64,000 nt of DNA from a virus (IMGVR_UViG_3300027743_000026:1-64000); one strand, 5' to 3'; positions 13,711 to 45,868 are shown, counted from the stretch's first letter. Program-made: numbers and translations. The notes: generated by a model from the sequence alone, not told the origin.

Positions 13711-13740
13711 CTCCTGGTTTTGAGGCTGCTTCAACAGCCC
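13711..13740 (-). promoter_or_regulatory. Leader hairpin (GGCUG-UUGAAG-CAGCC) plus ACCAGGAG RBS, copy 1 of 9
   Basis: Read directly; precedes ATG 13703. Confidence 0.85.
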
Positions 13741-13745
13741 GGGTT

Positions 13746-14003
13746 TTAGATGCCTTCTAAGCCATCATTGAGTTCGACGGCGCCGCCGCCCATGCCGGTG
13801 AGCGTCTCGCCCTTGTAGACAAGCTTGCCCTTGGGCGGGTTGAGCAGGCGCCTGCGCTGGGCGAGGAGCTTCTCCAGCTCGCGCGCGGCACGCAGCAGCT
13901 TGCGCTGCCAGCGGTCGATCGCCTCGGCGTTGATGGCGAGCTTGGTCTGGCGCGCCTCGACCTTCATCTCGGGGTGCTTGGGAACAATACGACGACGCTT
14001 CAT
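13746..14003 (-). CDS. Small basic coiled-coil early protein
   Basis: Start MKRRRIVP after the conserved leader. Confidence 0.65.
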   Translation of the reverse strand: MKRRRIVPKHPEMKVEARQTKLAINAEAIDRWQRKLLRAARELEKLLAQRRRLLNPPKGKLVYKGETLTGMGGGAVELNDGLEGI

Positions 14004-14010
14004 TTCTAGG

Positions 14011-14086
14011 CTCCTGGTTGAGGGCCGCTTCAACGGCCCGGCATTTTGTATTCCCATTTGATATACGAGTTCAAACAGAAAGTCAA
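14011..14086 (-). promoter_or_regulatory. Sigma70-type promoter (TTGACT...TTTGAAC...TATATC) plus leader hairpin GGGCCG-UUGAAG-CGGCCC and RBS, copy 2
   Basis: Read directly on the - strand. Confidence 0.8.
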
Positions 14087-14090
14087 CAGT

Positions 14091-14345
14091 TTATTTAATC
14101 TCCGCCTTGAGGATCGCTGCCCGGCGCGTGGCGTTGTCCTGGTTGATGCTGCGGTACTCAGCCGCGCTGATCTCGATCGCCGGGACGATCTCGGCGCCCT
14201 TTGCCGCCTTGTAGGCGAGGCCTACCGCACTCGCCCATTGCGCGGCTTTCCAGCCGGGAGAATGAGCATGGCTGTACTTGCGGCCGGCGGTCGATCGCGT
14301 GAACGTCTGGCCGTTTGAGAAGGTTGCCTTGTAGTAGGTAGTCAT
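14091..14345 (-). CDS. Small early protein
   Basis: TRST..R.YSHA motif; own promoter and leader. Confidence 0.65.
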   Translation of the reverse strand: MTTYYKATFSNGQTFTRSTAGRKYSHAHSPGWKAAQWASAVGLAYKAAKGAEIVPAIEISAAEYRSINQDNATRRAAILKAEIK

Positions 14346-14353
14346 TTTTCAGT

Positions 14354-14428
14354 CTCCTGGTTGAGGCCGCTTCAACGGCCTTGCATCTCGTATGCCCATC
14401 TGATATACGCACTCAAATCGGAAGTCAA
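14354..14428 (-). promoter_or_regulatory. Sigma70-type promoter (TTGACT...TTTGAGT...TATATC) plus leader hairpin AGGCCG-UUGAAG-CGGCCU and RBS, copy 3
   Basis: Read directly; divergent from the RHH gene. Confidence 0.8.
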
Positions 14429-14448
14429 GCAGACGAGGAGCCAGGACA

Positions 14449-14667
14449 ATGCCAAGCGGCGGAGCAAGAGAGAAGTCCGGACCGGAGAAACGGTTCGAGG
14501 AACGCATCATGATCAAGCTTTCGACCAAGCTGTTGGGGGCGCTCGACGAGATCACCCGCGATGGCGAGACCCGCAGCGAGGTGATCCGCCGGGCGCTCGA
14601 ACGCGAGGTGACACGGTGCCTCAAGATCCACAGTAAGACTGGCGGCAGGGCGTCGGCGCACCTATAA
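14449..14667 (+). CDS. Ribbon-helix-helix (CopG/Arc-like) transcriptional regulator
   Basis: RIMIKLS..LL..LDE...G.TRSEVIRRAL pattern. Confidence 0.75.
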   Translation: MPSGGAREKSGPEKRFEERIMIKLSTKLLGALDEITRDGETRSEVIRRALEREVTRCLKIHSKTGGRASAHL

Positions 14668-14674
14668 TCTTCAC

Positions 14675-14790
14675 CAGCGCTGAACGTGGCGGGTTTGCGC
14701 TCCTGGTTCCATCAAAAGAACAGCGAACCCTAACCCATCAGCGACAGGCCCTCGGCACGGCTTCAAACGTGCCGGGGGCCGCTTCATATT
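14675..14790 (+). ncRNA. Candidate trans-acting antisense sRNA (two stem-loops)
   Basis: TATAAT at 14663-14668; stem-loop 14678-14743 containing CUCCUGGUUCC; 13-bp hairpin 14747-14780 with loop GCUUCAAA; both complementary to the nine leaders. Confidence 0.7.
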
Positions 14791-14801
14791 TGGAGGCCGC
14801 T

Positions 14802-15173
14802 GTGCCGACACTGAAACCGCAAATGCCGGCCCCGCTGCAGCGTCCGCACGTCGACCCGGCGCCGCACCTGACCAGCGCCGGCTCCTGCTCTGACTGCGGA
14901 CGCAAAGCCGTCACCGCCGCCGACAATATGCTGGTGTGTCCGGAGTGCTTTGCGCTCTTGCGGCATGAGGATTACACCGCCGAGCTGCGGCGCAAGCAGG
15001 AACTCATCAACCAGAGAATGAAGGAGACCCGCGAGCGCAATCGCCAACTGGACCAGGAACGCAAGGAGCGGATCAGAGACGAGCGCCGGCAAATACAGCA
15101 GATGATCATCGCCGCTGAGGAAAAGCTAAAACCACCTCAGCAGGATAAGCAGCACGAAGATAACGGCCAGTGA
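14802..15173 (+). CDS. Zinc-ribbon plus coiled-coil protein
   Basis: GGAGG RBS, GTG start; CSDC...CPEC. Confidence 0.55.
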   Translation: MPTLKPQMPAPLQRPHVDPAPHLTSAGSCSDCGRKAVTAADNMLVCPECFALLRHEDYTAELRRKQELINQRMKETRERNRQLDQERKERIRDERRQIQQMIIAAEEKLKPPQQDKQHEDNGQ

Positions 15174-15337
15174 CAGCAGACTGTAAAGCAGCGCCTGCCG
15201 GTGCGAACTCATCAGAAGATCCACACAGTTGCGGGTCGCGGTCGCCGGGGATTACGAAAGACGCCGCGACCCGCACCGCTGATGCTAGAGGACAGCGGTC
15301 TCGTCTGCTTTATTCTCTCGCCGCTGCGGGAGCAAGC

Positions 15338-15538
15338 TCATATCATCCACGCGAAGATCATGATTATCATGATGTAGCTGAGCACGTAGGTGATCGCGTG
15401 CTGCCAGTCGTAGTAGATGAGCGCCCAGATCGCGATGAATACGCCGTAAGAAACCAGCGTCACATCGAGGCGATCAATCTTGAAGCGGCGGTGGCGATAG
15501 ACAACAACGTCGCCCCAATCCCAAAGGGTATTGAGCAT
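15338..15538 (-). CDS. Small membrane protein
   Basis: Two hydrophobic segments; start uncertain. Confidence 0.5.
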   Translation of the reverse strand: MLNTLWDWGDVVVYRHRRFKIDRLDVTLVSYGVFIAIWALIYYDWQHAITYVLSYIMIIMIFAWMI

Positions 15539-15665
15539 TCGCCACCATAGTTTCACAGCAAGCTCCTCAACTGGAAGCGGGTCCGGTCGGTCAGAGGTGC
15601 TAAACGTACCGGACCCGCCCCACACAGGCCGTCAAGCTTGGGTGAAATCGACAGCCTGTATTGCC

Positions 15666-16238
15666 TTACGTCGTGCTCTTCTTCTTACGCATCTTGCTGA
15701 GCGCGCCGAGACCGAGGAGGCCAGACGCGAACAGTGCCAATGCGCCGGGGATCGGCACCGGAGTCACAGCGAGATTGCCGCCGTAGCCCGACGTGCCACC
15801 ACCGATGCCGCTCAGCTGGAGATAGTAGCTGCCGGCTTCGAGGATGCCCGCACCAGCCAAGACCTGGCAGCTGGGCTGCAGGATGCAGGCTTGCGCGATC
15901 TCGGGACCAAACCGCAGGATGTCATCGGCCCCACCAAGCGCGCCTACCTGCTGGTACACTGCGCCTTGGAAGTTCGTGATGAAATCCGTGGGCGCGGGGT
16001 AGACATTCGTCGCGCTCGTTATCGTGACGAAAGACGGCGAGCCGACCAGCTGAAACAAAACCTGGTCGGTGAACGCGCCGCCGCCGGTGCCGTTGATGCC
16101 GAGAGTACCGCTGGAGAAATCACCCGTCCGTGAGGTCGGATTGATCCCAAGGTTGTCGACAACAGCAGCGGACGCTGGTGCCATTCCAAATGAGAATAGG
16201 ACAGTGGCCGCCAGTAGTGCTCTCTTCGTTTTGTGCAT
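15666..16238 (-). CDS. Secreted protein with VPLPA-CTERM (PEP-CTERM-type) sorting signal, FxDxF-like
   Basis: Signal peptide; FTDQVLF; C-terminal VPIPGALALFASGLLGLGALSKMRKKK (motif + TM + basic tail). Confidence 0.85.
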   Translation of the reverse strand: MHKTKRALLAATVLFSFGMAPASAAVVDNLGINPTSRTGDFSSGTLGINGTGGGAFTDQVLFQLVGSPSFVTITSATNVYPAPTDFITNFQGAVYQQVGALGGADDILRFGPEIAQACILQPSCQVLAGAGILEAGSYYLQLSGIGGGTSGYGGNLAVTPVPIPGALALFASGLLGLGALSKMRKKKSTT

Positions 16239-16331
16239 ATTTTAGTCTCCATCTGCTGCAACGATGCAGCCGGTTTACGGTAGCGAAGTGTGGACCGCCT
16301 GGGTAGTTGCCGCTCCCCAGGCGGGGTCGTT

Positions 16332-17003
16332 TTAGGCGGTCGCGAGTTCGGCCGCCTTGCGTTTCTTGTCAGCACGTTTCTTCAGCATACCGATACCGAC
16401 CAGGCCAGCCACGAACAAGCCCGCCGGCAGCGGGATCGGCACCAGCTGCGGAATCGCAGCCGCTTCGATTCTGAAGTGCTCGAAGCCAGTGATGTTGCCG
16501 CCTTGATCAAGCAAGACGATGCTGGTGATGACCTCGCCGTCTCGCGTTCCGAATGTGAAGCCGGATTGCGAGTTGTTGATCGCACCGAGCAGGAAGCTCT
16601 GCACAGTTTCCGGGTTGCCATTCGCATCGACGGCAGAGACCAACGCCGTCACGCTGCCGGTGCCACTCAGGGAGAACACTTCCGTGGTGGTGCCGATCAG
16701 GTTACCTTGGGCGTCGAACACCTGAATCCGCAGATTGTTGGTGTTCGCGATCTTGATATCGTTGCCGTTGGCGGCTGCGGTGAAACCAGTTCCCGCAGTA
16801 CATCCACCTAAGCAACTGAAATTAACGAACCCAGTGTGTTGCCCATTGAACGTACCAATGGCAAGGTTGGGCGACAGAGCGTTGAAGATCACGTTGTCGC
16901 CGGTGCCGCTCAGATTGCTCTGAACGAAAACCGCAGCCGATGCCGGCAGTGATGCGAGGGCCGTGCTCGCCAGGAGCGCGGCCGCAAATACAAGTTTGCG
17001 CAT
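16332..17003 (-). CDS. Secreted protein with VPLPA-CTERM-type sorting signal
   Basis: Signal peptide MRKLVFAAALLA...PASA; C-terminal VPIPLPAGLFVAGLVGIGMLKKRADKKRK. Confidence 0.85.
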   Translation of the reverse strand: MRKLVFAAALLASTALASLPASAAVFVQSNLSGTGDNVIFNALSPNLAIGTFNGQHTGFVNFSCLGGCTAGTGFTAAANGNDIKIANTNNLRIQVFDAQGNLIGTTTEVFSLSGTGSVTALVSAVDANGNPETVQSFLLGAINNSQSGFTFGTRDGEVITSIVLLDQGGNITGFEHFRIEAAAIPQLVPIPLPAGLFVAGLVGIGMLKKRADKKRKAAELATA

Positions 17004-17221
17004 TGAGGTTTCCTTGTCGTGTTGTGGGGTAGTTGCCGCTCCCCCATGATGCTGCAAGAGCGCAGCGCACTAGCCCTAACCAGGGTTACTGCGATGCGTT
17101 CCGGCCAAGGTGACCTTCATCTTCTTGGTACGTTTGGTGAGCATAGCCTTTTTCTGCGCGCGTGGGCTAACGCCGGCCCAGGTCCGGAACTCCGGCAACC
17201 GCGGCGGGCGCTTGCGCTTGT

Positions 17222-17775: not shown

Positions 17776-17777
17776 TT

Positions 17778-19281: not shown

Positions 19282-19287
19282 TTCAGT

Positions 19288-19560: not shown

Positions 19561-19584
19561 TACGCTCCCCGTAAACAAAGGGCG

Positions 19585-36053: not shown

Positions 36054-36560
36054 ATGGCGTTCTGGGCGACGCTCGAGACCGAGAGTCAACGCGAATCAAT
36101 CGTTCGGCTGCTGATCATGCGGACCGGCCGGGAGACGTACCTCCCGCGGATCAAACATCACGCACGAGTCACGCCGTTATTTCCTCGCTACTTGTTCGTC
36201 AAAATCGTCGACGACCGATGGTGGGAGGTTCGTTGGACCCCGCATGTGCTGCGGATCCTTACGTTCGGAGAATATCCTCAGGCTGACGTCAGGCTCGAAG
36301 CTGCGATCGCGATGATCAAAAAGCAGGAACGGGACGGTCTGGTAAAACTTCCGGCCGCGGTGGCTTTGCGCAGGGGCGCCCCGGTCCGGATCAAAAGCGG
36401 AAGTTTTGCAGGCCACATCGGTATTCACGACGGCATGAGCGGAAAGGACCGGCAACGGGTCCTGCTCAAAATGCTGGGTCAGACCGTCCCGGTCGAGCTG
36501 CCCAATACCGACTGCCAACCTCTCACCGACCCACAGCTGCTAGAGAATTTACGGGCCTGA
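36054..36560 (+). CDS. nusG: NusG/RfaH-family transcription antitermination factor
   Basis: PLFPRYLFV NGN motif and KOW G..VRI..G.F.G..G. Confidence 0.85.
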   Translation: MAFWATLETESQRESIVRLLIMRTGRETYLPRIKHHARVTPLFPRYLFVKIVDDRWWEVRWTPHVLRILTFGEYPQADVRLEAAIAMIKKQERDGLVKLPAAVALRRGAPVRIKSGSFAGHIGIHDGMSGKDRQRVLLKMLGQTVPVELPNTDCQPLTDPQLLENLRA

Positions 36561-36572
36561 GGCCCCAAGGCG

Positions 36573-36800
36573 TTGCGCCAGGCGTCGAGTTGCGCTAGAG
36601 AATCACCATCCCACAAACCCGGTAAGCTGTTATTTGCACGCGGAAATCCCTGAATTGGGGACCTCCGTGAGTCGCAGCGCGCTGTTCAAAGCCTTGAAAA
36701 GACTGCGTTCGAAGCGCCGGAGTTTGTGGGAACTCACGCCGATTGCTTCGATCATTGGGCGCCCGGCTGGTTCATCGTCCACCCAGCCTGGGCGCCCTTC
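36573..36800 (+). promoter_or_regulatory. Candidate late promoter, structured leader and terminator-like hairpin
   Basis: TTGCGC-N17-TAGAGA; 36609-36622 pairs with 36717-36731; GC hairpin 36757-36797. Confidence 0.55.
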
Positions 36801-36923
36801 CTCATCCCCGCAAACCGGGTCCTGATGCGCCTGATGCAGGCAGCCCCCAGGCAGGTAGCCTCCTGCGGCAAATCGAACCGGTGGCCTCCGTAGCTCCCTC
36901 CAGAGCTGGAGGTACTCGAGTAA

Positions 36924-37286
36924 GTTCACAGATTTCGCTTGGCATTCATGGATTTTGCATTCATGGATTTCGCAAACAAATAAATCACAGTTTTCGCAAT
37001 TCAATTGGGGAAATTGGGTGATGGATCTGGCGTTGACCGAGGGCCCTACCGGCGGGGCGATCGCGCACCGGGCCGATTGTCCGCAAGTTCGCGCGCTGGC
37101 GGCCGCGGGCCAGCCAGTCATGACGATGCTCGGTTGCGAGAAGCCGCTGCCTGACGACGTGCCGCGGCATTCCTGCCTTGGGCCCGAGCAATCTGACTTG
37201 TTCGATTCATAGTTTTCGCAAATTCACAGATTTCGCAAATTCATGGATTTCGCAAATTCATGGATTTCGCAATTCATAGATTTCGC
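36924..37286 (+). repeat. Two clusters of about 17-bp ATTCAYRGWTTTCGCAA repeats (4 + 5 copies)
   Basis: 36924-36999 degenerate; 37205-37286 tandem. Confidence 0.85.
37021..37212 (+). CDS. Small hypothetical protein between the repeat clusters
   Basis: MDLALTEG...H.A.CP...HSCL. Confidence 0.5.
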   Translation: MDLALTEGPTGGAIAHRADCPQVRALAAAGQPVMTMLGCEKPLPDDVPRHSCLGPEQSDLFDS

Positions 37287-37396
37287 TTAGCAGAACCCGG
37301 CGCGTCCGCGCCTGGACACGTCGAGGCGACGGAGCGGCGCCGGGCTGCTACGCGCAGGCCGGCGCCGACCGAGGCTGAGGCGAGCTTGCTTGCGCG

Positions 37397-37687
37397 CTAG
37401 GTCTTGTCGGGCACACGCACGAAGTCGGCTTTGGGCTTCGAGCTGGCGTTCTTCGGGCCCCAGCCTTTGCGCACCAGGCACTCGGCGCGGTAGGTGTTCC
37501 AGGCCGCGAGCCCAGGCGTGGCCTTGCGCTCGGCGCTCTCGCGCCACTCGGCGCCGCAGGTCCGCATCACGTCCGTGAACGTGATCTTGGGTGCGGCGGG
37601 CGCGGCGGTCGGCGCCGGTGCCTCCTGCCCGGCGGCGGTGCCGAGCGAGAGCGCGACCAGGGCGGCCGCGAGGATGGTTTGTCGCAT
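37397..37687 (-). CDS. Secreted PsiF-like two-Cys protein
   Basis: Signal peptide; M..CGAEW...K......W..Y..EC; own promoter at 37766-37794. Confidence 0.6.
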   Translation of the reverse strand: MRQTILAAALVALSLGTAAGQEAPAPTAAPAAPKITFTDVMRTCGAEWRESAERKATPGLAAWNTYRAECLVRKGWGPKNASSKPKADFVRVPDKT

Positions 37688-37865
37688 GGTGTCGGTTTCC
37701 TTTTCGGTTCGGTTCGGTTGTCGGGGTCCGGACCATCCGGCGCCCTCTGTCGTTTCAGTATTGATAACGTATGCCTAGGTTCAAAAAGAGTCAAGAATTA
37801 TTTTCGCAAACAAACAAATAAATTGAAAGGCGCTCAAAGCCGCTAGGGCGGTCGCTGGTGACGTG

Positions 37866-38325: not shown

Positions 38326-38410
38326 AGGGTAGTCCTTTCATTTTCCGTTCTGGTGTCCGGCAGAATTGCCGATCATGGCGCCCGCGGGCGCCATGCGCTG
38401 CAATTCGGCT

Positions 38411-38590: not shown

Positions 38591-38594
38591 TGTC

Positions 38595-38780: not shown

Positions 38781-39571
38781 GCTGCATTCTCCCGCACAAC
38801 AAACCCGGACCGATCGCGCTTTGCCTTGTTTCCCTTGGGCGAAAGCCATACCACGACGTTTGCGGGGTCCAGGTGTCGCAAGTCGTGTTCGTCACCGTCG
38901 ATTGTGCGGTATCCGTTCCATTGCTTGGGGCGCGGCAATGCTGACACCACAGCAACGTTGCGGCCCTCCTGCAAAAGCTCGATGGCTTGCGCGTCGTTTT
39001 CTTCCGAGCGCGAAAACGTCAAGTAGTAGTTTGCTGGCAATGCGCGCTTGAACCGGCGCGCGCTTTTCGTGTAGTCGACAAATTGCACCGCGGGAAACGC
39101 GCTAAAGATAGTATGGGCGCCCGGCGTTACAGTGTGGCCGCTGATCGCGCTCAATTCTGCGGCGAATTCCGGCGTCACCATCACGCGCAAGCCTTCGTAT
39201 GCGATATCGGTCGACCCGTTCGGCCGCAACACAAGCTTGACGCGCTTGCGCTTTGCGGTGCGAATTGCCGCGGCGCTGTGGCGTAGCATTTCGAGCATGT
39301 AGGCTTGTCGGTCGCGCATGAAGTAGCGCGCCTTGCGTTCGCGAGAATCGCGGACCGAATTAGTCCAATCGGTCGCGGCCGATACCATCGAAGCTTGACC
39401 GGATTCGCGGCCAAGGCAAAGCGCAATGCAACCCGGACTAGCATCGGGGCACAAATTGCCGACCCCGGCGGATTCATGCGGCGCCATGTAGTTAATTCCG
39501 TTCAGGTAACGGAACTTTGCCGCTTTGATAGCCTTGGGGCTATCGAACGAATAAAAGCGCTTGAATTGCAT
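38777..39571 (-). CDS. GP88-family protein
   Basis: CP.AS.GC...CL, R.NG.TD, F.DYTK, NY.LTFS.SE.N, GD..DLR..DP, K.....D.SGFV motifs. Confidence 0.75.
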   Translation of the reverse strand: MQFKRFYSFDSPKAIKAAKFRYLNGINYMAPHESAGVGNLCPDASPGCIALCLGRESGQASMVSAATDWTNSVRDSRERKARYFMRDRQAYMLEMLRHSAAAIRTAKRKRVKLVLRPNGSTDIAYEGLRVMVTPEFAAELSAISGHTVTPGAHTIFSAFPAVQFVDYTKSARRFKRALPANYYLTFSRSEENDAQAIELLQEGRNVAVVSALPRPKQWNGYRTIDGDEHDLRHLDPANVVVWLSPKGNKAKRDRSGFVVRENAA

Positions 39572-39579
39572 TTTAGTCT

Positions 39580-39662
39580 CTCCTGGTGTTCCGAGCGGCT
39601 TCAACCGCCCTTCTGAACATTAGTCGCTAATACGTATGCCTAGGTTCAAAAGAAAATGCAAG
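39580..39662 (-). repeat. About 70-bp promoter-hairpin-RBS repeat (leader copy 4)
   Basis: Near-identical to 40243-40313, 40987-41057 and 41952-42020. Confidence 0.9.
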
Positions 39663-39685
39663 AATTATTTTGGAAATAAACCAAC

Positions 39686-39711
39686 AAAAAAAAAAGCGCC
39701 CCGCGGGGCGC
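39686..39711 (-). terminator. Intrinsic terminator
   Basis: GCGCCC/GGGCGC stem followed by U10 on the - strand. Confidence 0.75.
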
Positions 39712-39720
39712 CCTCTTGGT

Positions 39721-40233
39721 TCAGATTCTGGTGATACATTCAGGGCCGAATCCCTGGTGAACCGAAGTCGGGACCGTAAGCTTGCGACCACAGCGGCCGC
39801 ATTTTCCTTCCGTCCATATTTCGAGCTGATCGGGCAAGCGGCCGCGAACCAAGGCGCGCCATGTCCAATCGAAGGCTTTAGCGGAGGGCGCGTCGCGGGA
39901 AACGTCACCGGGGCGTGGAACCTTGCGACCGAGCCAAAAAATGTCGCGCGAAATGCGACCTAAATATTTGTAGTCGGATTCGTTGTTTTGTCCGACCAAA
40001 AGCCCGACAAAATGACAAAGCCCGTCGTCGCTAACGGAAATGCGATAGGTGAACCGGGCGCCGGTTTTCTTGCTTGCGAGCGTAAATGTTGCGTTACCAG
40101 CGCGCAAGAATTTGAGCGCGTCGGGCGCCGTCGTGAGCTGTCCGCGCATATCGGCGCCCTTGGCGGGCGCGGGGTCCGCGTCAAGGTTTATATCGTGATC
40201 CAAGCCCGCGAAAATGTCAGAGTGATTGCACAT
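39721..40233 (-). CDS. DUF6011-domain protein
   Basis: GNA.FT..S.KTG...TY; C-terminal CGRCGR.LT.P.S...G.GPEC. Confidence 0.8.
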   Translation of the reverse strand: MCNHSDIFAGLDHDINLDADPAPAKGADMRGQLTTAPDALKFLRAGNATFTLASKKTGARFTYRISVSDDGLCHFVGLLVGQNNESDYKYLGRISRDIFWLGRKVPRPGDVSRDAPSAKAFDWTWRALVRGRLPDQLEIWTEGKCGRCGRKLTVPTSVHQGFGPECITRI

Positions 40234-40242
40234 TGCTTGAGT

Positions 40243-40324
40243 CTCCTGGTGTTGCGAGCGGCTTCAACCGCCCTTCTGAACATTAGTCGTTAATATGTAT
40301 GCCTAGGTTCAAAGGAAGAGTCAA
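40243..40324 (-). repeat. Promoter-hairpin-RBS repeat (leader copy 5)
   Basis: TTGACTC -35; TTTGAACCTAGGCATAC; GGGCGG-UUGAAG-CCGCUC; ACCAGGAG. Confidence 0.9.
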
Positions 40325-40326
40325 AT

Positions 40327-40358
40327 AAAAAAGGCGCCCCGCCCGCGGGGCGCCTTTT
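40327..40358. terminator. Bidirectional intrinsic terminator
   Basis: A6-GGCGCCCCGC-CC-GCGGGGCGCC-T4. Confidence 0.8.
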
Positions 40359-40372
40359 CGGAGTGATCCGGA

Positions 40373-40978
40373 TCAGGATCGGGGCGGGCGCGCGTTGCGG
40401 CCCTTCGGGGTAACGGCGCCCGCCTTGTTCAGAAGGCCTTTACTGATCAGCGAATCCTTGGCCGCTTGCCATTGCTCGCGGGTCGGGAATTGCGGCGTTG
40501 AGTCGTCGCGGCGCCAAGGATATTCCGCTTGAGTCTTGGCCATGGTGTAACGGTCTTGACCGTTATAGCTCGACTTGAACGAACACGTTGCGCTTAACAC
40601 AATCGACTCGTGTTCGCTCAATTCCGGCGCCGGCGCCGGTAACAGGGCCGCGGCGTTGTCCGGGTGCACGTAGAACGTCAATCCCATATCCTTGCCGCAA
40701 AAGAGCGAGTGTTCGACTACGGCAAAGCCGGGCTTTAGCGTAATGTGCTGATCCTTGCGCGACGAATCCCATGGCGCCGACATATTGTCGGACGCGGCGA
40801 TAGCGTCACCAGTAGCGAGCTGAACAAACCGAAACGTGTTGCGGGTACCGCCGGACCATAGACCAGCGTCCGAAGGAATCGTGACTTGCGTCACCACGAC
40901 AGCCTTAAACTTTTTGCCCGTGTATCCGCCGCGCAATTGCGCGGGAATCATCGCGGCGTCTAGATAGATTGCGTTCAT
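40373..40978 (-). CDS. Early hypothetical protein
   Basis: W.GG.R, VE...FCGKD.G...YVHP, L..KG.L...GA.T..G motifs; own promoter and terminator. Confidence 0.7.
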   Translation of the reverse strand: MNAIYLDAAMIPAQLRGGYTGKKFKAVVVTQVTIPSDAGLWSGGTRNTFRFVQLATGDAIAASDNMSAPWDSSRKDQHITLKPGFAVVEHSLFCGKDMGLTFYVHPDNAAALLPAPAPELSEHESIVLSATCSFKSSYNGQDRYTMAKTQAEYPWRRDDSTPQFPTREQWQAAKDSLISKGLLNKAGAVTPKGRNARPPRS

Positions 40979-40986
40979 GTCGGAGT

Positions 40987-41068
40987 CTCCTGGTGTTGCG
41001 AGCGGCTTCAACCGCCCTTCTGAACATTAGTCGTCAATACGTATGCCTAGGTTCAAAGGAAGAGTCAA
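40987..41068 (-). repeat. Promoter-hairpin-RBS repeat (leader copy 6)
   Basis: As above. Confidence 0.9.
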
Positions 41069-41069
41069 C

Positions 41070-41285
41070 TTATTTTCGCATCAATCCAATCGAGACACGG
41101 TCGCGGGCGATAAACCGAGCGGCGCCCACATCGGCCAATATTTCGTCGCGCGCGTTCCACCATGCAAAGCGCTTATTTGGCGCCGCGACATAGTAGCAGC
41201 GGGATTCGCGGATCGTGGTTCCGTCGGGCTTATCCCAATGCAGAGTCACGCGCCATTGTCGGACCGTCGGAATATTGCGGGACAT
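41070..41285 (-). CDS. Small early protein
   Basis: TAATG coupling to the upstream gene. Confidence 0.55.
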   Translation of the reverse strand: MSRNIPTVRQWRVTLHWDKPDGTTIRESRCYYVAAPNKRFAWWNARDEILADVGAARFIARDRVSIGLMRK

Positions 41286-41758
41286 TAGCGAGCCCTCGCA
41301 AACGTCTTGACCTGATCGCGGGTAATTTCCCAAGGCGCGTCATATTTTGGCACCATACGAATCGCCTCGGTGCGAATTGCCTCGATAATCTTGCAAGCAA
41401 CCGACTCTTCATAGTCGTTAGTCTCGCAAGCCTGATAATCGAAACAAGAGCAACCGCTAAGGATCAGCCCGACAAGCTTGTGTTGCGGCAAAGACTCGAG
41501 CCCTGCAAACGGGCTGAACTTATAGGACGCGACCGACTCGCCCTCGCGACCGGGCGCCGTTTCCTCGGTTTCGTTTGGATAACGGTTCAGAACCGAGCGA
41601 AGATTCTCGCCTAGCAAGATTCGACCGGTTTCGGTCGCGTTGTCGCTGGTGATATCGATGCAACGGGCGGGACCGTCGACGAAATAGCGCAAGCGCTGCG
41701 ACACCGCGAAAGTCACAAGCGCGTCAATATGATCGTGCGAGACAACAAAAGCAGACAT
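41285..41758 (-). CDS. Early hypothetical protein (L..EN..S...RY / YQ.CE family)
   Basis: Recognisable motif pattern; preceded by leader copy 7 (41766-41791). Confidence 0.7.
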   Translation of the reverse strand: MSAFVVSHDHIDALVTFAVSQRLRYFVDGPARCIDITSDNATETGRILLGENLRSVLNRYPNETEETAPGREGESVASYKFSPFAGLESLPQHKLVGLILSGCSCFDYQACETNDYEESVACKIIEAIRTEAIRMVPKYDAPWEITRDQVKTFARAR

Positions 41759-41800
41759 TGGGATTCTCCTGGTGTTTGCGGCTTCAACCGCGGTTGAGAC

Positions 41801-41944
41801 TTAGGCGAGGGCGAGCGCGACCGCGCGCAAGCCCATCTGGCGGATGGCGTACCGGTCCGCGCGCATGACGCAAAACGAGACCTGAAAGCGGCCGAGTCGG
41901 ATAAACCGGATTCCGCCGACGCGCTTGTTAGAGTAGTTGAACAT
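41801..41944 (-). CDS. 47-aa basic early protein (not in ORF track)
   Basis: Own translation MFNYSNKRVGGIRFIRLGRFQVSFCV...LALA*; directly after leader copy 8. Confidence 0.65.
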   Translation of the reverse strand: MFNYSNKRVGGIRFIRLGRFQVSFCVMRADRYAIRQMGLRAVALALA

Positions 41945-41951
41945 TTTCCGT

Positions 41952-42032
41952 CTCCTGGTTCCGAGCGGCTTCAACCGCCCTTCTGAACATTAGTCGTTAA
42001 TACGTATGCCTAGGTTCAAAAGGAAATGCAAG
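41952..42032 (-). repeat. Promoter-hairpin-RBS repeat (leader copy 8)
   Basis: As above. Confidence 0.9.
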
Positions 42033-42199
42033 AAAATTCGACACCTGGAATCAAATTAAATAGACTAGGATTCAAAGTCGGAGGGCCCGGAACCGGGCTC
42101 GGTTCAGGGCAAGGGCCCGAAAAACCAGGGCTTGAACGGTACCCGACTACCAAATGACGGGCCGACTCGCCGGAACAAAACTAAATTAGCAGGCTAATA

Positions 42200-42769
42200 A
42201 TGCCGAAGGGCGGAATTCGCGCGGGCGCCGGGCGCCCCAAGGGCTCGGGAAAAGGCCATCGGGTCGTGGTCGAGAATCCCGACGGGCTCATGCCTATCGA
42301 ATGGATGCTAGCGGTTATGCGCGACCCGCTAACCGAGCCGTTACGCCGCGACCGGATGGCGGAAATAGCGGCGCCCTATCTGCATTCGAGACTCGCCGCG
42401 GTGTCCGTTACTGGTGAAGTGAAGGGCAGCACGTCAAACACCACAAACAACACGGTTAACATCTTTGCGGTGCCGCGCGGCGCCGCAGTGAATCTCAAAG
42501 ATGGAACGGTCGAAGTCGAAGGCATTGCGACCACGGACCTAGCAGCGCTTGAACCGTTCGAAGGCACACCCGCGCTCCCGGATCAGAGCGACGCGAATCG
42601 GGGCACGCAACCACCCAAGGGCCCGTTGCCCGTGCACGGTGTCGACACTAGCAACGTAACACGACTCAAGCGACCTGGTGAACCGGGCGCCATGGTGCAA
42701 CGGGTATTTGATGCGCTCGACAAGCGCGACACCAGCGACACTGGCAACACCAGCGACTCGAGCGCGTGA
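42200..42769 (+). CDS. Terminase small subunit-like protein
   Basis: GG.R.GAGRPKGS N-terminus, P...ML.VM.D.......R..MA..AAPY.H.RL; upstream of terL. Confidence 0.65.
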   Translation: MPKGGIRAGAGRPKGSGKGHRVVVENPDGLMPIEWMLAVMRDPLTEPLRRDRMAEIAAPYLHSRLAAVSVTGEVKGSTSNTTNNTVNIFAVPRGAAVNLKDGTVEVEGIATTDLAALEPFEGTPALPDQSDANRGTQPPKGPLPVHGVDTSNVTRLKRPGEPGAMVQRVFDALDKRDTSDTGNTSDSSA

Positions 42770-43112
42770 ACCAGGGCCCGCGCCGGGGCTCGCGGCCGCT
42801 CGGCAATGCACTAAGCCGCATGCCATAAGGCTAATGCGCGCCTAGCGGGCGGTACACTAAGCCGCCCGACGGGCGCCCGGCGCCGTCGGCAGTATGGTCC
42901 CCAGTATGGGCAGGATAGCGCGGGCGCCAGATAGTCCAGTAATATCAATGGGGCGACGCGGACACACTATCCGCGCCTAGCAGAAGCTATTCTGAAACCC
43001 GTTAGCTAAAAGCGTCGAAATTTGGGGGCGGCACGCCCTCTCTATGGTTTTCAAGCTTTTGATTTTTGCGGAGTTTTTGCAAAAAATTTTTTCCCGCGTA
43101 GGAATAAAATCA

Positions 43113-43394
43113 ATGCGCCTACCGATACCCGACGACTGCGGCCGCGCTGCCCGAGAGCTGATTGCGCACGGCCTGGACCCGAACGAGCACCTTGAGTTCA
43201 TGCGCGGCGACGAGGTCAGCCTCCACGGCACCGCCCGCGCCTTCGCCACCCGCACCGTGGTCGAGACCCCGAACGGTCCCCGTCACGCGCCCTACCGGCC
43301 CTTCGATCGCACGGCAATGGTGCGTCTGGGCCTGGTGGTAGACCCGCCGGTGCGGCGAAAGCGCCGGCCGGCAAGATTGATCGTCCAGGACTGA
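43113..43394 (+). CDS. Hypothetical protein
   Basis: AAR.LI..G.DP...L...R pattern. Confidence 0.5.
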   Translation: MRLPIPDDCGRAARELIAHGLDPNEHLEFMRGDEVSLHGTARAFATRTVVETPNGPRHAPYRPFDRTAMVRLGLVVDPPVRRKRRPARLIVQD

Positions 43395-43432
43395 AAACGC
43401 ACGTACGGGCTCCTCGTCGCCTCGGGAACGCA

Positions 43433-43651
43433 ATGCCTTCAAATGCGGAGAAACGGGCCCTGATTGCGACCGCCCTGAACGAGGCGCTGGCCACACGGGT
43501 GATCCGGCTGTTTGAGGCGCTGTGTTCGGCAGAGAACATAGAGCTGGGGTTGATCCGGTTTAGTGAAGGAATGACCCAGGCTATGGAAGCCTACGAGGCA
43601 GCGAATGACCCCAATGCCCCGTGGTGCGGCGGCCGCCGGCTGGACGTGTAA
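43433..43651 (+). CDS. Hypothetical protein
   Basis: TAATG-coupled to the next gene. Confidence 0.5.
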   Translation: MPSNAEKRALIATALNEALATRVIRLFEALCSAENIELGLIRFSEGMTQAMEAYEAANDPNAPWCGGRRLDV

Positions 43652-43974
43652 TGCGGTTCCGGCCGGCGGACGACCCACGCAACACCGTCGATGACATCCC
43701 CGGGGTCACCACCGACAAGACCGAGCCCGGGACGCCGGTGGAATGGGAGGATAATTTTCTCTCCAACACCTTCGCCTGGGCCAGCTACCGGCTGGTCCCG
43801 GATTGGTGCCAGACCCCGGAGCACTTCACTTCGCGGTTCACGCAATACCTCTTTACCGACTGTCCCTGCTGCCTGTTCTGGCGCGGATTGACCTTTGGCT
43901 ACGTGGTCGGCGGCGTTGTCGGGGCCATCGTCGGCATGATCGTGATGTGGTTGGGTGCGCAATGGTTGCACTAG
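43651..43974 (+). CDS. Membrane protein with CPCC motif
   Basis: TDCPCCLFWRG followed by a GxxxG-rich TM helix; overlaps the terL start. Confidence 0.65.
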   Translation: MRFRPADDPRNTVDDIPGVTTDKTEPGTPVEWEDNFLSNTFAWASYRLVPDWCQTPEHFTSRFTQYLFTDCPCCLFWRGLTFGYVVGGVVGAIVGMIVMWLGAQWLH

Positions 43975-45182
43975 TGATGGGCGAGAACTTCACCCGCACG
44001 CTGTTCGCCAAGAACGTGCGACACAAGGCCCTGTATGGCGGCCGCGGCTCCGGCAAGACCTGGTCGATCGGCTCCTACCTGGTCTACACCGCCAACACCG
44101 AAAGGAAGCGCATCATCTGCGCCCGGCAGTTTCAGAACTCGATCCGGGACAGCTCCAAGGATCTGATCGAGCGCCGCATCCGCGACTTCGAGCTGGACCG
44201 CGAATTCAGTCTGACCGACCGCGCCATCACCCATCGCAAGACCGGCTCGGAGTTCTTGTTCATCGGGCTCGAGCGCAACATCGAGAGCATCCGTAGCTTG
44301 GAAGGCGCCGACATCGTGTGGATCGACGAGGCCCGCACCATCTCCAACCGCTCGATGGAGATTCTGCTGCCCACCGTGCGGGCGCCCGGCTCGCAGCTGA
44401 TCTGGTCCTGGAATCCTGAGGATCCTCTGGACCCGGTCGACGCCTATTTCCGCGCCGGCAAGCCACCGCCCAATTCGGTGATCACGTTCGTCGACTACAA
44501 CGACAATCCGTACTTCAAGCACACCACTTTGCCGCACGAGATGGAGGTCCTAAAACGCGGAAATTTCAACAGATATCGCCATGTTTGGCTGGGAGAATAC
44601 GATTTATCGTACGATTCCAAGGTATTTTCCAACATTCGCGTCGGCCGCATCGACGTGCCCTACGAAACTCCGCCGCTCTACGGCATGGACTTCGGTTTCG
44701 GCAAGGATCCGAGCTTCGTGGTCAAGTGCTATCACCTGGAGAAGACCAAACAGATTTTCATCGCCGCTGAGGCCACCGGCAGAGTTGCCTTGGACATGCT
44801 GCCGGCGATGTTGCGCACCGTGATCGCCGACGATGGCGACCTGGTGAAGGCCGACGCCTCACAGCCTGGCACCATCGAGTTTTTGCAGGCGCGCGGCTTC
44901 AATATCCACGCCGCCAACAAGGGACCAGGCTCGGTCAAGAGTGGCATCAACTTCCTGCAGGGCTACGAGATCGTCATCGACCCGAATTGCGAGGCGATGC
45001 GCGAGGAAGCCCGCCTTTACAGCTGGATGACCGACAAGCTCACTGGCAGAGTTCTCTCCGCCCCGGTCGACGCCTACAATCACGGTTGGGACGCCGTGCG
45101 CTACGCCACTGAGTCAGCCCAGGTCGAAAGCGCCATGGAAGGCAACAGTAACGGCGGCGTGATGTCGCTGAAGATATGGTGA
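43962..45182 (+). CDS. terL: Terminase large subunit (PBSX/Terminase_3 type)
   Basis: YGGRGSGKT, R.FQNSI.DS, WIDEA, WNP, GMDFG...DP, NH..DA.RYA. Confidence 0.95.
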   Translation: MVALVMGENFTRTLFAKNVRHKALYGGRGSGKTWSIGSYLVYTANTERKRIICARQFQNSIRDSSKDLIERRIRDFELDREFSLTDRAITHRKTGSEFLFIGLERNIESIRSLEGADIVWIDEARTISNRSMEILLPTVRAPGSQLIWSWNPEDPLDPVDAYFRAGKPPPNSVITFVDYNDNPYFKHTTLPHEMEVLKRGNFNRYRHVWLGEYDLSYDSKVFSNIRVGRIDVPYETPPLYGMDFGFGKDPSFVVKCYHLEKTKQIFIAAEATGRVALDMLPAMLRTVIADDGDLVKADASQPGTIEFLQARGFNIHAANKGPGSVKSGINFLQGYEIVIDPNCEAMREEARLYSWMTDKLTGRVLSAPVDAYNHGWDAVRYATESAQVESAMEGNSNGGVMSLKIW

Positions 45183-45523
45183 GCGGCTCGGGTCAACCGC
45201 TCCTTGGTCTCTCGACTCGACGCTTTGGTGCCTGCTTTCCCTGCGTCTTGGGAGCGTCCGTGGAGCACCTTCGGACCTGAATGCGCGCGTTGACGACCTT
45301 GAACGGAAGATACCATCCTCGCGAGAGAACCGCAGGTCGCCTTTCTGAACTCCGAGCCGCGCGCTACCCGAAGGAAAATGCCCTCGCGAGGTAGTTAGTA
45401 ATGTTCGATCACCGCCTGGCAAGCCGTAACTTCTACACCAGCCGGCGCCACTGGCCGGGATTATCGGCGCGGGAGTGGCCGAGCCGCTGGCGGACACCGG
45501 ACGGCCATGCCGGTGACTTCAGC

Positions 45524-45793
45524 TCACCATCGCCGCCTTCGTCTGATGATGTAGCCACCGTAGCCGTAGCCGCCGCGCCATCCGCACAGACCCTGAATAA
45601 ACCCGATGATGCAGACGCCGAGCAGTGGCCACCGCATGCTGAGGATGACCAAGGAGAAAATGGTGGTGGCGGTGATGATCCAGGCCATTCCCTCGCCAAA
45701 GCTGGCTTGGTCACGCGGCGCGGTGAAGATGAACAGCAGAACGACTGCCATCCAGACTAAGGAAAAGATTTCAGATTTACTGAGCGGACGCAT
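45524..45793 (-). CDS. Small membrane protein, counter-oriented within the late region
   Basis: Hydrophobic helices and Arg tail; own promoter and leader copy 9. Confidence 0.65.
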   Translation of the reverse strand: MRPLSKSEIFSLVWMAVVLLFIFTAPRDQASFGEGMAWIITATTIFSLVILSMRWPLLGVCIIGFIQGLCGWRGGYGYGGYIIRRRRRW

Positions 45794-45802
45794 AATTTAG
45801 TT

Positions 45803-45868
45803 CTCCTGGTTGGGCTGCTTCATCAGCCGGTATGGTTAGTTGATATACGGGTTCAAAGAGGATTGCAA
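45803..45868 (-). promoter_or_regulatory. Promoter (TTGCAA...TTTGAAC...TATATC) plus hairpin GGCUG-AUGAAG-CAGCC and RBS, copy 9
   Basis: Read directly. Confidence 0.8.

What the first reader, a model, noticed from the sequence alone, without database searches (positions are those of the whole stretch)
13711..45828. Nine dispersed 5' leaders share a covarying hairpin with a conserved (U/A)UGAAG loop next to an ACCAGGAG RBS
Seen, all on the - strand just before start codons at 13703, 14003, 14345, 39571, 40233, 40978, 41758, 41944 and 45793. The stems differ but always pair: GGCUG/CAGCC, GGGCCG/CGGCCC, AGGCCG/CGGCCU, GGGCGG/CCGCUC and GCGG/CCGC. The loop and extended RBS are conserved. Two copies (13711, 41766) precede downstream genes with no promoter of their own, so the element follows translation starts rather than promoters. 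Inference: an RNA operator defining a post-transcriptional regulon, read by the sRNA above or by a protein (boxB-like).
Basis: seen in the sequence. Interest (0 to 1): 0.85.

Follow-up and report, generated by a model that had tools for sequence, protein, structure and literature searches.

The report
Shared hairpin leader of phage early genes
Nine early genes of an uncultured soil or sediment phage begin behind the same small RNA hairpin fused to the ribosome-binding site, which probably lets one factor control their translation together; the hairpin is real and conserved, but what reads it is unproven.

Summary
The window is 64 kb of a 72,469-bp phage genome. Exactly nine minus-strand leaders carry a 4-6 bp hairpin with loop (U/A)UGAAG, 3-7 nt before CCAGGAG and an ATG. 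With relatives from metagenomes there are 23 distinct copies: TGAAG is invariant, and 4 of 6 stem pairs show double changes. Between orthologues the loop changes as rarely as the SD (1/43 and 1/42 columns) while the spacers change at about 0.3. Frequent G.U pairs point to RNA rather than DNA.

The unit follows start codons, not promoters. Two copies sit after stop codons, one is a clean 44-nt indel against relatives, and one promoter of the same kind lacks it. It matches no Rfam family and occurs only in a narrow phage clade.

My best reading is a portable translational operator read in trans. The only visible candidate reader is the RNA after the RHH regulator gene. Its terminator loop (CUUCAA) and an 11-mer complement the leader loop and SD, and the loop is kept in a 67%-identity relative. 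Two thermodynamic tests did not single out the leaders, so this is unproven. It is not a boxB. The closest analogues are the SAS/ESAS motifs of Cluster K mycobacteriophages.

The scan has noted similar hairpin-plus-SD leaders on other DNA (e1-1953594, e1-5749040).

The parts
45791..45832 (-). Leader copy 1: hairpin ggcug-AUGAAG-cagcc (45828-45813), CCAGGAG (45809-45803), ATG at 45793. Heads an 89-aa ORF.
   Evidence: 43.8 bits
41942..41983 (-). Leader copy 2 (type B): hairpin gggcgg-UUGAAG-ccgcuc (41980-41963), CCAGGAG (41958-41952), ATG at 41944. Heads a 47-aa ORF.
   Evidence: 61.6 bits
41756..41796 (-). Leader copy 3, without a promoter, 9 nt after the stop of the preceding gene: hairpin gcgg-UUGAAG-ccgc (41791-41778), CCAGGAG (41772-41766), ATG at 41758. 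Heads a 157-aa ORF.
   Evidence: 50.0 bits
40976..41020 (-). Leader copy 4 (type B): hairpin 41017-41000, CCAGGAG 40993-40987, ATG at 40978. Heads a 201-aa ORF.
   Evidence: 60.9 bits
40231..40276 (-). Leader copy 5 (type B): hairpin 40273-40256, CCAGGAG 40249-40243, ATG at 40233. Heads a 170-aa DUF6011 protein.
   Evidence: 62.8 bits
39569..39613 (-). Leader copy 6 (type B): hairpin 39610-39593, CCAGGAG 39586-39580, ATG at 39571. Heads a 264-aa GP88-family protein.
   Evidence: 59.5 bits
14343..14384 (-). Leader copy 7 (type A promoter): hairpin aggccg-UUGAAG-cggccu (14381-14364), CCAGGAG 14360-14354, ATG at 14345. Heads an 84-aa ORF.
   Evidence: 59.1 bits
14001..14042 (-). Leader copy 8 (type A promoter): hairpin gggccg-UUGAAG-cggccc (14039-14022), CCAGGAG 14017-14011, ATG at 14003. 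Heads an 85-aa ORF.
   Evidence: 54.3 bits
13701..13743 (-). Leader copy 9, without a promoter, 6 nt after a stop codon: hairpin gggcug-UUGAAG-cagccu (13740-13723), CCAGGAG 13717-13711, ATG at 13703. Heads a 250-aa DUF2786/DUF7168 protein. Relatives lack the whole 44-nt module (13706-13749).
   Evidence: (55.0 bits)
41984..42031 (-). Type B promoter cassette (TTGCAT / TTTGAACCTAGGCATAC / ACTAA / CAGAA) upstream of copy 2. Near-identical cassettes lie at 41021-41068, 40277-40324 and 39614-39661. The same cassette at about 37745-37793 heads a different leader that has no UUGAAG hairpin.
   Evidence: The transcription start site is not known.
14385..14428 (-). Type A promoter (TTGACT ... TTTGAGT ... 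CGTATATCA) upstream of copy 7. Similar promoters lie at 14043-14086 (copy 8) and 45833-45868 (copy 9's counterpart, copy 1). It overlaps, back to back, a plus-strand TTGCAT-N17-TATACG that faces the RHH gene.
   Evidence: Read from the sequence; not tested.
14449..14667 (+). Ribbon-helix-helix regulator gene (72 aa), divergent from leader copy 7.
   Evidence: the 92%-identical homologue P0001 carries PF01402
14668..14800 (+). Candidate trans-acting RNA, either the 3' part of the RHH transcript or an intercistronic RNA. It holds CUCCUGGUUCC (14700-14710), the complement of the leader SD region. It holds a 13-bp hairpin (14747-14780) with loop GCUUCAAA (14760-14767), the complement of the leader loop. 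It ends in a GCUUCAU tail (14781-14787), the complement of the AUGAAG loop variant.
   Evidence: for; against

Best explanation
The element is a portable translation-initiation leader of about 40 nt that acts as RNA. It consists of a short G+C-rich hairpin whose loop (U/A)UGAAG is a specific recognition surface, a 3-7-nt A/C-rich spacer, a CAGGAG Shine-Dalgarno site and the start codon.

It heads a set of otherwise unrelated early genes of a probably virulent phage of an uncultured bacterium. I read it as a shared translational operator. A trans-acting partner recognises the loop and, because the hairpin abuts the SD, controls ribosome access to all these messages together. The likely effect is to shut off or time early proteins.

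The most concrete candidate partner is the RNA encoded just after the divergent RHH regulator gene. Its terminator-hairpin loop could kiss the leader loop (6 bp, CUUCAA with UUGAAG). Its unpaired CUCCUGG(UUCC) could then cover the SD.

Shown: the RNA structure, the selection on the loop, the linkage to start codons, the modular gain and loss, and the conserved complementarity.

Inferred: that any partner binds, the sign of the regulation, and the timing.
For: 1. Statistics. There are 9 matches against 0.12 expected. The covariance model separates nine hits at 43.8 bits or more from the next at 16.8 bits.

2. Structure. In 23 distinct copies, 94.2% of cells pair against 81.0% in shuffles (0 of 500 shuffles reach this). 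Four of 6 pairs show double changes. The second pair from the loop is GC in 16, CG in 4 and UA in 3. The closing pair is GC in 21 and AU in 2. Sliding the 3' partner by 1-3 columns drops pairing to 30-49%.

3. RNA rather than DNA. One pair is G.U in 13 of 23 copies, which would be A.C on the other strand.

4. Selection on the loop. In 7 orthologous pairs the differences per column are loop 1/43, SD 1/42, stem 7/81, spacers 12/39 and 17/56, and upstream 60/311.

5. Linked to starts, not promoters.
- 2 of 9 copies follow stop codons.
- The copy at 13703 is a 44-nt indel replaced by 'CAA' in contigs of 3 of the 4 runs laid (L098).
- The promoter at about 37790 has the cassette but another leader.
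- The orthologue of gene 38325 has the hairpin in L083 but not in the window.

6. The downstream proteins are unrelated.

7. Candidate partner.
- CUCCUGGUUCC and the GCUUCAAA loop lie 50 nt apart in the RHH intergenic region.
- Both are kept in L098/L145 and L144 while their flanks change.
- A stem change gives G.U on the plus strand only.
- In L146 (RHH 67% identical) the same position holds an intrinsic terminator with loop CUUCAA and a different inner stem. A leader hairpin with loop AUUGAAG sits on the other side of the RHH gene.
- In the consensus fold CUCCUGG is unpaired and the anti-loop is apical.
- In the genome the only non-leader hairpin loop with CTTCAA is this one.
- In 1.79 Mb of unrelated phage contigs, 1 of 89 such hairpins has CTCCTGG within 120 nt.
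Against: - No expression data exist, and the transcription start sites of the leaders and of the candidate RNA are unknown.
- Duplex energies: the candidate window (about -35 kcal/mol mean) is not among the top 20 of 3577 genome windows (mean -28.4, sd 3.2).
- Cofold net binding energies: the nine leaders rank 8, 14, 21, 24, 37, 62, 66, 71 and 76 of 90 translation-initiation regions. Mann-Whitney p = 0.34. This method cannot model loop-loop kissing.
- The candidate RNA could be a decayed leader copy, so the complementarity may reflect ancestry.
- The anti-SD 11-mer is not seen in L146, whose leader SD is off the contig.
- All copies come from one narrow clade, so the independent evolutionary events are few (about 8 distinct stems).
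- The hairpin appears in the minimum-free-energy fold of only 7 of 9 leaders in a -60..+30 context, and the SD is only moderately exposed (p unpaired 0.16-0.74).
Confidence: 0.4

Rival explanations
1. The module works in cis only. The hairpin protects the message or insulates the strong SD from upstream sequence, and it gives any newly acquired gene a ready-made, efficient start. Nothing reads the loop. The loop is kept because it forms a particular compact fold (U.G-closed UGAA) or because the copies spread recently.
For: - The module is gained and lost as a unit.
- The same leader heads different genes in close relatives: L082, L083 and L001 against the window.
- More distant relatives (G007, G008) also have G+C-rich hairpins a few nt before A-rich SD regions, but with no shared loop.
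- RNAalifold adds a U.G pair in 21 of 23 copies, leaving a UGAA tetraloop.
- No reader has been demonstrated.
Against: - The loop is as constrained as the SD (1/43 against about 0.3 in the spacers), while the stems changed with compensation. There was therefore time to diverge.
- A mere stable loop could be replaced by many others.
- The AUGAAG and AUUGAAG variants break or bulge the U.G closure yet keep UGAAG.
- Predicted SD exposure is unremarkable.
Confidence: 0.3
2. A protein reads the hairpin. One version is a phage or host translational repressor, as T4 RegA and gp43 do at their operators. The other is the phage NusG paralog (36054-36560) loading on a leader RNA hairpin to carry RNA polymerase through the terminators between cassettes. 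That version is LoaP-like or N/boxB-like in logic; LoaP is recalled, not checked in a call.
For: - The conserved asymmetric loop on a variable stem is the classic look of a protein-binding hairpin.
- The phage encodes a NusG-domain protein (PF02357, E 2.4e-7). It is 99% conserved in the relative G001, which also has the leaders.
- Strong terminator-like hairpins with U-tracts end two cassettes, at 39717-39690 and 40344-40332.
- 7 of 9 copies lie just downstream of promoters.
Against: - None of the 49 phage proteins scanned against Pfam matched a known RNA-binding family other than the NusG domain.
- An antitermination site has no reason to sit 3-7 nt from the SD in 22 of 23 copies, or directly after stop codons.
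- The NusG gene lies in the plus-strand replication block and is followed by its own structured region. That suggests a late-gene target (note e1-6207802, unchecked).
- Distant relatives with a NusG homologue of 35-43% identity show no shared leader loop.
Confidence: 0.2
3. The inverted repeat acts as DNA. It would be an operator for the RHH or another DNA-binding protein, or a recombination joint that shuffles gene cassettes, with no RNA role.
For: - The leaders mark points where gene content differs between close relatives, as PeSL cassettes do in T4-type phages (PMC4122927; passages read).
- The loop shares TTGAA with the TTTGAAC box of the promoters.
Against: - The arms differ in sequence between copies while the asymmetric loop is fixed, which is the opposite of a palindromic operator.
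- G.U pairs (13 of 23 at one position) are mismatches as DNA on the other strand.
- The distance from the TTTGAAC box varies (34-45 nt), and two copies have no promoter.
- Homology-driven shuffling can be a by-product of any repeat.
Confidence: 0.07

Closest known systems
[quoted passage not shown] 2011, PMC3203893, passages read; PMC12699233, passages read)
   Same: - A conserved SD-containing motif lies just before the start codons of a subset (11-19) of non-structural genes in one orientation.
- About half are preceded by an imperfect inverted repeat.
- Copies are conserved at orthologous genes.
- The function is still untested, although a role in translation is suspected.
   Different: - In ESAS the conserved part is the 17-bp arms and the spacer varies (4-13 bp).
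- Here the arms vary with compensation and the loop is the conserved part, which points to an RNA hairpin with a recognised loop.
- The host phylum and the motif sequences differ.
- The supplements of those papers were not seen.
PeSL (promoter-early stem-loop) cassettes of T4-type phages (Arbiol et al. 2010, PMC2839356, search listing only; Comeau et al. 2014, PMC4122927, passages read)
   Same: - Repeated composite cassettes of promoter, stem-loop, SD and start codon lie in front of small variable early genes.
- They sit at insertion, deletion and replacement points between close relatives.
   Different: - In PeSLs the stem-loop lies upstream of the promoter and acts as the terminator of the preceding unit. 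Its loop is not conserved.
- Here the hairpin lies between promoter and SD, occurs without a promoter, and has an invariant loop.
Phage antisense RNAs that block a ribosome-binding site: P22 sar in the immI region with the RHH repressors Arc and Mnt (PMC2629481, passages read), and P1/P7 c4 RNA (Citron and Schuster 1990, seen only as a reference in PMC8201110; the mechanism is recalled)
   Same: - A small phage RNA encoded beside RHH-type regulators is complementary to the translation-initiation region of phage messages.
- c4 uses two short separate complementarities. This detail is recalled.
   Different: - Those RNAs act on one operon. sar acts in cis-antisense and c4 on its own transcript.
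- Here one RNA would act in trans on nine dispersed leaders through a shared hairpin loop plus the SD.
- Binding is not shown here.
T4 translational repressors RegA and gp43 (Uzan and Miller 2010, PMC3014915, passages read)
   Same: - RegA turns down about 30 early messages at their initiation regions, so it defines a post-transcriptional early regulon.
[quoted passage not shown]
   Different: - RegA sites are A+U-rich and unstructured.
- gp43 is autogenous and acts on a single gene.
- No homologue of either repressor was detected among the 49 proteins scanned.
Lambda-type nut site (boxB hairpin bound by N). Its features are recalled, not taken from a call.
   Same: A short hairpin with a purine-rich loop lies downstream of early promoters in a phage that has terminators between early units.
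   Different: - The loop has 6-7 nt, not a pentaloop.
- No conserved boxA-like partner is shared by both promoter types.
- The position is fixed relative to the SD, not to promoters or terminators.
- Copies occur after stop codons.

Membership tests
Any Rfam 15 family | A match at or above a family's gathering score | tested here: not met
   No match in the window at gathering thresholds. With E up to 1 on 13600-14900 and 39400-42100 there are only sub-threshold hits to unrelated sRNA models, such as 18.8 bits against a threshold of 50 and 24.4 against 70.
Lambda-type boxB / nut | A five-nucleotide GNRA-like loop on a 5-bp stem (recalled definition) | tested here: not met
   The loop is 6 nt in 23 of 23 aligned copies, and 7 nt in L146, L149 and L083. 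The stem has 4-6 bp.
Lambda-type boxB / nut | An N-family antiterminator protein and a boxA partner element | not tested
   No N-like family appeared among the 49 proteins scanned against Pfam. N proteins are small and divergent, and no dedicated search was made. No sequence beside the hairpin is shared by type A and type B leaders apart from the SD region.
PeSL cassettes | A stem-loop upstream of the early promoter, doubling as the terminator of the previous unit | tested here: not met
   The hairpin lies downstream of the promoter boxes and 3-7 nt before the SD. Two copies have no promoter. The definition comes from PMC4122927.
PeSL cassettes | Location at indel or replacement points between close relatives | tested here: met
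   There is a 44-nt indel at 13706-13749. Different genes follow identical leaders in L082, L083 and L001 compared with the window.
SAS/ESAS of Cluster K mycobacteriophages | The 13-bp asymmetric motif GGGATAGGAGCCC (two mismatches or fewer) just upstream of start codons | tested here: not met
   The conserved motif here is C(C/U)CAGGAG and its context differs. The architecture is analogous, but the family is different. The definition comes from PMC3203893 and PMC12699233.
SAS/ESAS of Cluster K mycobacteriophages | A pair of conserved 17-bp imperfect inverted repeats with a variable spacer | tested here: not met
   The arms have 4-6 nt, vary in sequence and covary. The 'spacer' (the loop) is the invariant part.
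Trans-acting antisense RNA with its target (P1 c4 / P22 sar kind) | Complementarity between the regulator RNA and the ribosome-binding region of the target | tested here: met
   CUCCUGGUUCC (14700-14710) complements 8-11 nt of the nine SD regions. GCUUCAA and GCUUCAU complement the two loop variants. The motifs are conserved in L098, L144 and L145, and the loop in L146.
Trans-acting antisense RNA with its target (P1 c4 / P22 sar kind) | The regulator RNA is made and binds the targets preferentially | tested here: inconclusive
   No RNA run was listed. Duplexfold and cofold energies do not favour the nine leaders, but neither method models loop-loop kissing.

The most novel reading that the evidence does not exclude
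This phage runs an RNA-only early shut-off regulon. The 3' end of the RHH regulator's transcript would be a trans-acting RNA. Its terminator loop kisses a dedicated operator loop carried by nine dispersed early leaders, and its anti-SD then closes their ribosome-binding sites. The operator-plus-SD module is portable, so any newly captured gene would join the regulon on insertion. The reverse flow is also possible: abundant early leaders could open the terminator and tail hairpin and so turn on the downstream zinc-ribbon gene.
Probability: 0.25. Interest if true: 0.8.

Novelty: new variant of a known kind. Interest (0 to 1): 0.55.

Why it matters
Repeated start-associated motifs in phage genomes, such as SAS/ESAS, have been known since 2011 without a mechanism. 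This family is a cleaner case. The RNA structure is supported by covariation and the loop is under selection as strong as the SD. The unit is visibly gained and lost, and a specific testable partner lies next to a regulator gene.

If the partner is confirmed, it would show how a phage wires unrelated, freshly acquired early genes into one post-transcriptional circuit with a 40-nt plug-in. Such a compact, portable operator would also be useful for synthetic control of translation.

If nothing reads the loop, the element is still a well-defined new leader RNA family of a narrow clade of uncultured phages.

Tried and rejected
- **RNA evidence.** The look-up of sequencing runs listed 16 runs and no RNA holder, so there are no data on expression, 5' ends or processing.
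- **Read laying.** It gave only DNA contigs of close relatives. These were useful for the 44-nt indel but showed no new loop variants.
- **More relatives.** That call used the single metagenome scan and gave 3 loci. The RHH alignment found only one known contig in viral contigs and nothing in genome contigs. The DUF2786 protein found no relatives in viral contigs. Megablast of 39000-46000 against named phages found nothing. The best named relatives of the DNA polymerase are only about 35% identical.
- **More distant relatives.**
  - Loci with GP88 identity of 68% or less (L002-L080) carry no copy.
  - Loci with 157-aa protein identity of 54% or less carry no copy.
  - Loci with terminase identity of 66% or less carry no copy.
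  - Co-variation between leader loop and anti-loop therefore could not be tested.
- **Transcription start.** I could not fix the -10 element of either promoter type from sequence. The generic sigma-70 scan found none of them (2 found against 3.8 expected). Whether the hairpin is 5'-terminal, which would favour a stabiliser role, stays open.
- **RNase III site.** Rejected, because a 4-6-bp stem is far too short. This rests on recalled knowledge of RNase III substrates.
- **Self-pairing of the loop with the mRNA's own SD or start.** Rejected, because there is no conserved complement in cis.
- **CsrA-type site.** Rejected, because there is no GGA in the loop. The motif is recalled.
- **Decayed tenth leader.** The minus-strand reading of 14700-14790 is possible by ancestry, but there is no start codon after its CCAGGAG.
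- **Unseen material.** Supplements of the cited papers were closed and may hold ESAS alignments that bear on the comparison.
- **In print.** I found no description of this element in searches. These are word searches of open-access text only.

Full report
**Setting**

The window is the first 64,000 bases of a single 72,469-bp record classed as a virus.

- The record encodes a large terminase at 43803-45182.
- It encodes tail-fibre proteins, a DNA polymerase, a helicase, a primase and a RecE-like exonuclease.
- No integrase turned up among the large ORFs scanned.
- No named phage is close. Megablast found nothing, and the DNA polymerase is at most 35% identical to named phages.
- DNA runs that hold parts of the record are labelled as soil and freshwater-sediment metagenomes. 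I laid four of them.

**The observation**

All nine sites are as described.

- TGAAG-N(4-14)-CCAGGAG occurs 9 times, always on the minus strand. The shuffles expect 0.12, and 0 of 100 reach 9.
- A scan of the whole genome for NTGAAG loops closed by at least 4 pairs gave 11 hairpins. Nine of them have CCAGGAG and an ATG behind them.
- A covariance model (R1) scores the nine at 43.8-62.8 bits and the next window hit at 16.8 bits.
- Seven copies follow promoter-like cassettes of two kinds. Four 'type B' copies are near-identical over about 90 nt, so they count as one event.
- Two copies (13703, 41758) begin 6 and 9 nt after the stop codon of the preceding gene.
- The proteins behind the leaders are unrelated: DUF2786/DUF7168, a GP88-family protein, DUF6011, and six with no confident family match.

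**Relatives**

- Protein-guided and pattern-guided scans of IMG/VR and one JGI metagenome scan gave 174 loci.
- The model finds strong copies only in a narrow clade: L001 (5 copies), L081/L082/L083, L098/L145 (2) and L149 (1). There is a 25.8-bit variant in L083. These come from 160 sources and 1,866,679 bases searched.
- L146, a 1,114-bp contig whose RHH protein is 67% identical, starts inside a further copy.
- Loci with GP88 identity of 68% or less carry no copy. The same holds for 157-aa protein identity of 54% or less and terminase identity of 66% or less.
- Two such relatives (G007, G008) do have G+C-rich hairpins just before A-rich SD regions, but these share no loop.

**Structure and selection**

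- In the alignment of 23 distinct copies, TGAAG and CAGGA are invariant.
- For the 6-pair stem, 94.2% of cells pair against 81.0% in shuffles (0 of 500). Four pairs have double changes. The second pair from the loop is GC in 16, CG in 4 and UA in 3. The closing pair is GC in 21 and AU in 2. Slid controls pair at only 30-49%.
- Two of the AU closing pairs are in L001 leaders orthologous to window leaders that have GC. These are true compensatory changes.
- One pair is G.U in 13 of 23 copies. This fits RNA of the sense strand, not a DNA palindrome.
- Across 7 orthologous leader pairs the loop differs at 1 of 43 columns and the SD at 1 of 42. The stem differs at 7 of 81, the two spacers at 12 of 39 and 17 of 56, and the upstream region at 60 of 311. 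The loop is therefore as constrained as the SD, even though the neighbouring bases diverged freely.
- Loop variants keep UGAAG: AUGAAG in the window and L081, AUUGAAG in L149 and L146, and UUUGAAG in L083.
- The independent events are few (about 8 distinct stems from one clade). The covariation is convincing in pattern but not deep.

**The unit follows start codons and is portable**

- Two copies have no promoter.
- Contigs of three runs, and L098, lack exactly 13706-13749 (44 nt, replaced by CAA). There the DUF2786 gene is coupled to the upstream stop codon instead.
- The promoter at about 37790 has the type B cassette but a different leader.
- The orthologue of gene 38325 carries a UUUGAAG hairpin plus CCAGGAG in L083, a different loop in L001, and none in the window.
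- In L082, L083 and L001 identical leaders head genes that the window lacks, and the order of cassettes differs. The repeats also mark points of gene shuffling, as PeSL cassettes do (PMC4122927).

**What might read the loop**

A fixed loop on a variable stem directly beside the SD argues for a specific partner that affects ribosome access. The genome offers one concrete candidate.

*Anatomy of the candidate*
- The ribbon-helix-helix gene lies at 14449-14667 (PF01402 on its 92% homologue). It is divergent from leader 14345.
- It is followed by 133 non-coding bases on the plus strand.
- CUCCUGGUUCC (14700-14710) complements 8-11 nt of the nine SD regions.
- A 13-bp hairpin (14747-14780) has the apical loop GCUUCAAA, which complements the UUGAAG(C) loop.
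- The tail GCUUCAU complements the AUGAAG variant.

*Close relatives*
- L098/L145 and L144 keep these motifs while the flanks change.
- A stem substitution gives G.U on the plus strand and A.C on the minus strand.
- In the consensus fold CUCCUGG is unpaired.

*L146*
- At the same place after the RHH stop there is an intrinsic terminator with a run of U.
- Its 6-nt loop is exactly CUUCAA, on a different inner stem.

*Rarity*
- In this genome the only non-leader hairpin loop with CTTCAA is this one.
- In 1.79 Mb of unrelated phage contigs, 1 of 89 such hairpins has CTCCTGG within 120 nt. That gives an expectation of about 0.04 per genome of this size.

*Against*
- By duplexfold the candidate is not among the 20 best of 3577 windows.
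- By cofold net energies the nine leaders rank 8 to 76 of 90 initiation regions (p = 0.34). Neither method models kissing loops.
- The region may simply be a decayed leader copy. It has CCAGGAG but no start codon on the minus strand.
- No RNA data exist.

**Other readers**

- Among 49 proteins scanned against Pfam, the only nucleic-acid-machinery hit of interest is a NusG-domain protein at 36054-36560. It is 99% conserved in G001.
- A NusG paralog loading on a leader hairpin is conceivable. Two cassettes end in strong terminators.
- The fixed 3-7-nt distance to the SD in 22 of 23 copies and the copies after stop codons fit translation better than antitermination.

**Cis-only role**

- A cis-only role as stabiliser or insulator remains a serious rival.
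- The hairpin is in the minimum-free-energy fold of 7 of 9 leaders, and SD exposure is unremarkable.
- The start of transcription is unknown.

**Comparison with the known**

- No Rfam family matches.
- The closest analogue in print is the SAS/ESAS system of Cluster K mycobacteriophages. It has an SD-containing motif before a subset of non-structural genes, half of them with an upstream inverted repeat, and its function is still untested (PMC3203893 and PMC12699233; passages). There the arms are conserved and the spacer varies. Here it is the reverse.
- PeSLs differ in placing the stem-loop before the promoter.
- T4 RegA and gp43 (PMC3014915) are the precedents for a protein reader, and P22 sar and P1 c4 for an RNA reader. 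None is a family that this element belongs to.
- boxB membership fails on loop size and on position.
- Earlier notes of this scan describe hairpin-plus-SD leaders on other mobile DNA (e1-1953594, e1-5749040). I did not check them.

**Verdict**

The finding is real and more than chance: a new leader RNA family of a narrow clade of uncultured phages.

- The regulon reading is plausible and now testable, with a named candidate partner. Binding and regulation are inferred, not shown.
- I give about 0.4 to a trans-read translational operator with the RHH-linked RNA as best candidate.
- I give 0.3 to a cis-only module, 0.2 to a protein reader and under 0.1 to a DNA-level role.

Noticed in passing
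window 36930-37290 (minus strand as read): There are two clusters of tandem repeats of about 17 bp (TGAATTTGCGAAATCCA-like units: four or five copies at about 37215-37285 and three or so at about 36925-36995). They flank the ORF 36630-37121 and look like iterons or a protein-binding array, between the NusG-paralog gene and the early array.
   Followed up: no
window 14384-14448: The promoter of leader 14345 (minus strand) and a plus-strand TTGCAT-N17-TATACG facing the RHH gene overlap back to back. The layout looks like a small genetic switch. Relatives carry a 9-bp insertion (AATTCAAAA) just before the RHH SD.
   Followed up: partly
window 14086-14168 against L098/L145: Relatives carry 467 extra bases here, an additional small gene on the minus strand between leaders 14003 and 14345. 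The window has 81 other bases instead.
   Followed up: no
window 46902-47228 (+): A 108-aa phage ORF matches the low-affinity iron permease family PF04120 at E 6.5e-36. That is unusual cargo for a phage.
   Followed up: no
window 38339-38374 (-); L001 6555-6630; L083 3788-3831: The leader of the secreted-protein gene 38325 exists in three states among close relatives. L083 has a UUUGAAG hairpin plus CCAGGAG. L001 has a hairpin with loop GUGACG. The window has a cggca-AUUC-ugccg hairpin with ACACCAGAACGG. This looks like the module decaying or being replaced.
   Followed up: partly
G007 (L170-L172) and G008 (L173): More distant relatives (terminase 58-60% identical) share a different hairpin-plus-SD leader, cgccg-ACC-cggcg followed by AAAAGGAG. 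G008 also has cggagcc-ACGA-ggcuucg followed by CAACCAAGGAGAGACUGAAAUG, whose 3' half resembles the leaders here.
   Followed up: partly
window 14781-14796 (+): In the consensus fold the CUUCA of the tail pairs with the UGGAG of the SD of the next gene, whose GTG is at 14802 and which encodes a 123-aa protein with a Cys4 zinc-ribbon-like motif. Pairing of the tail with a leader loop would therefore free that SD.
   Followed up: no
window 37287-37687 (-): The one cassette promoter without the hairpin heads a signal-peptide protein with very high third-position G+C (0.92, against about 0.6-0.8 for its neighbours). That suggests a recent acquisition.
   Followed up: no
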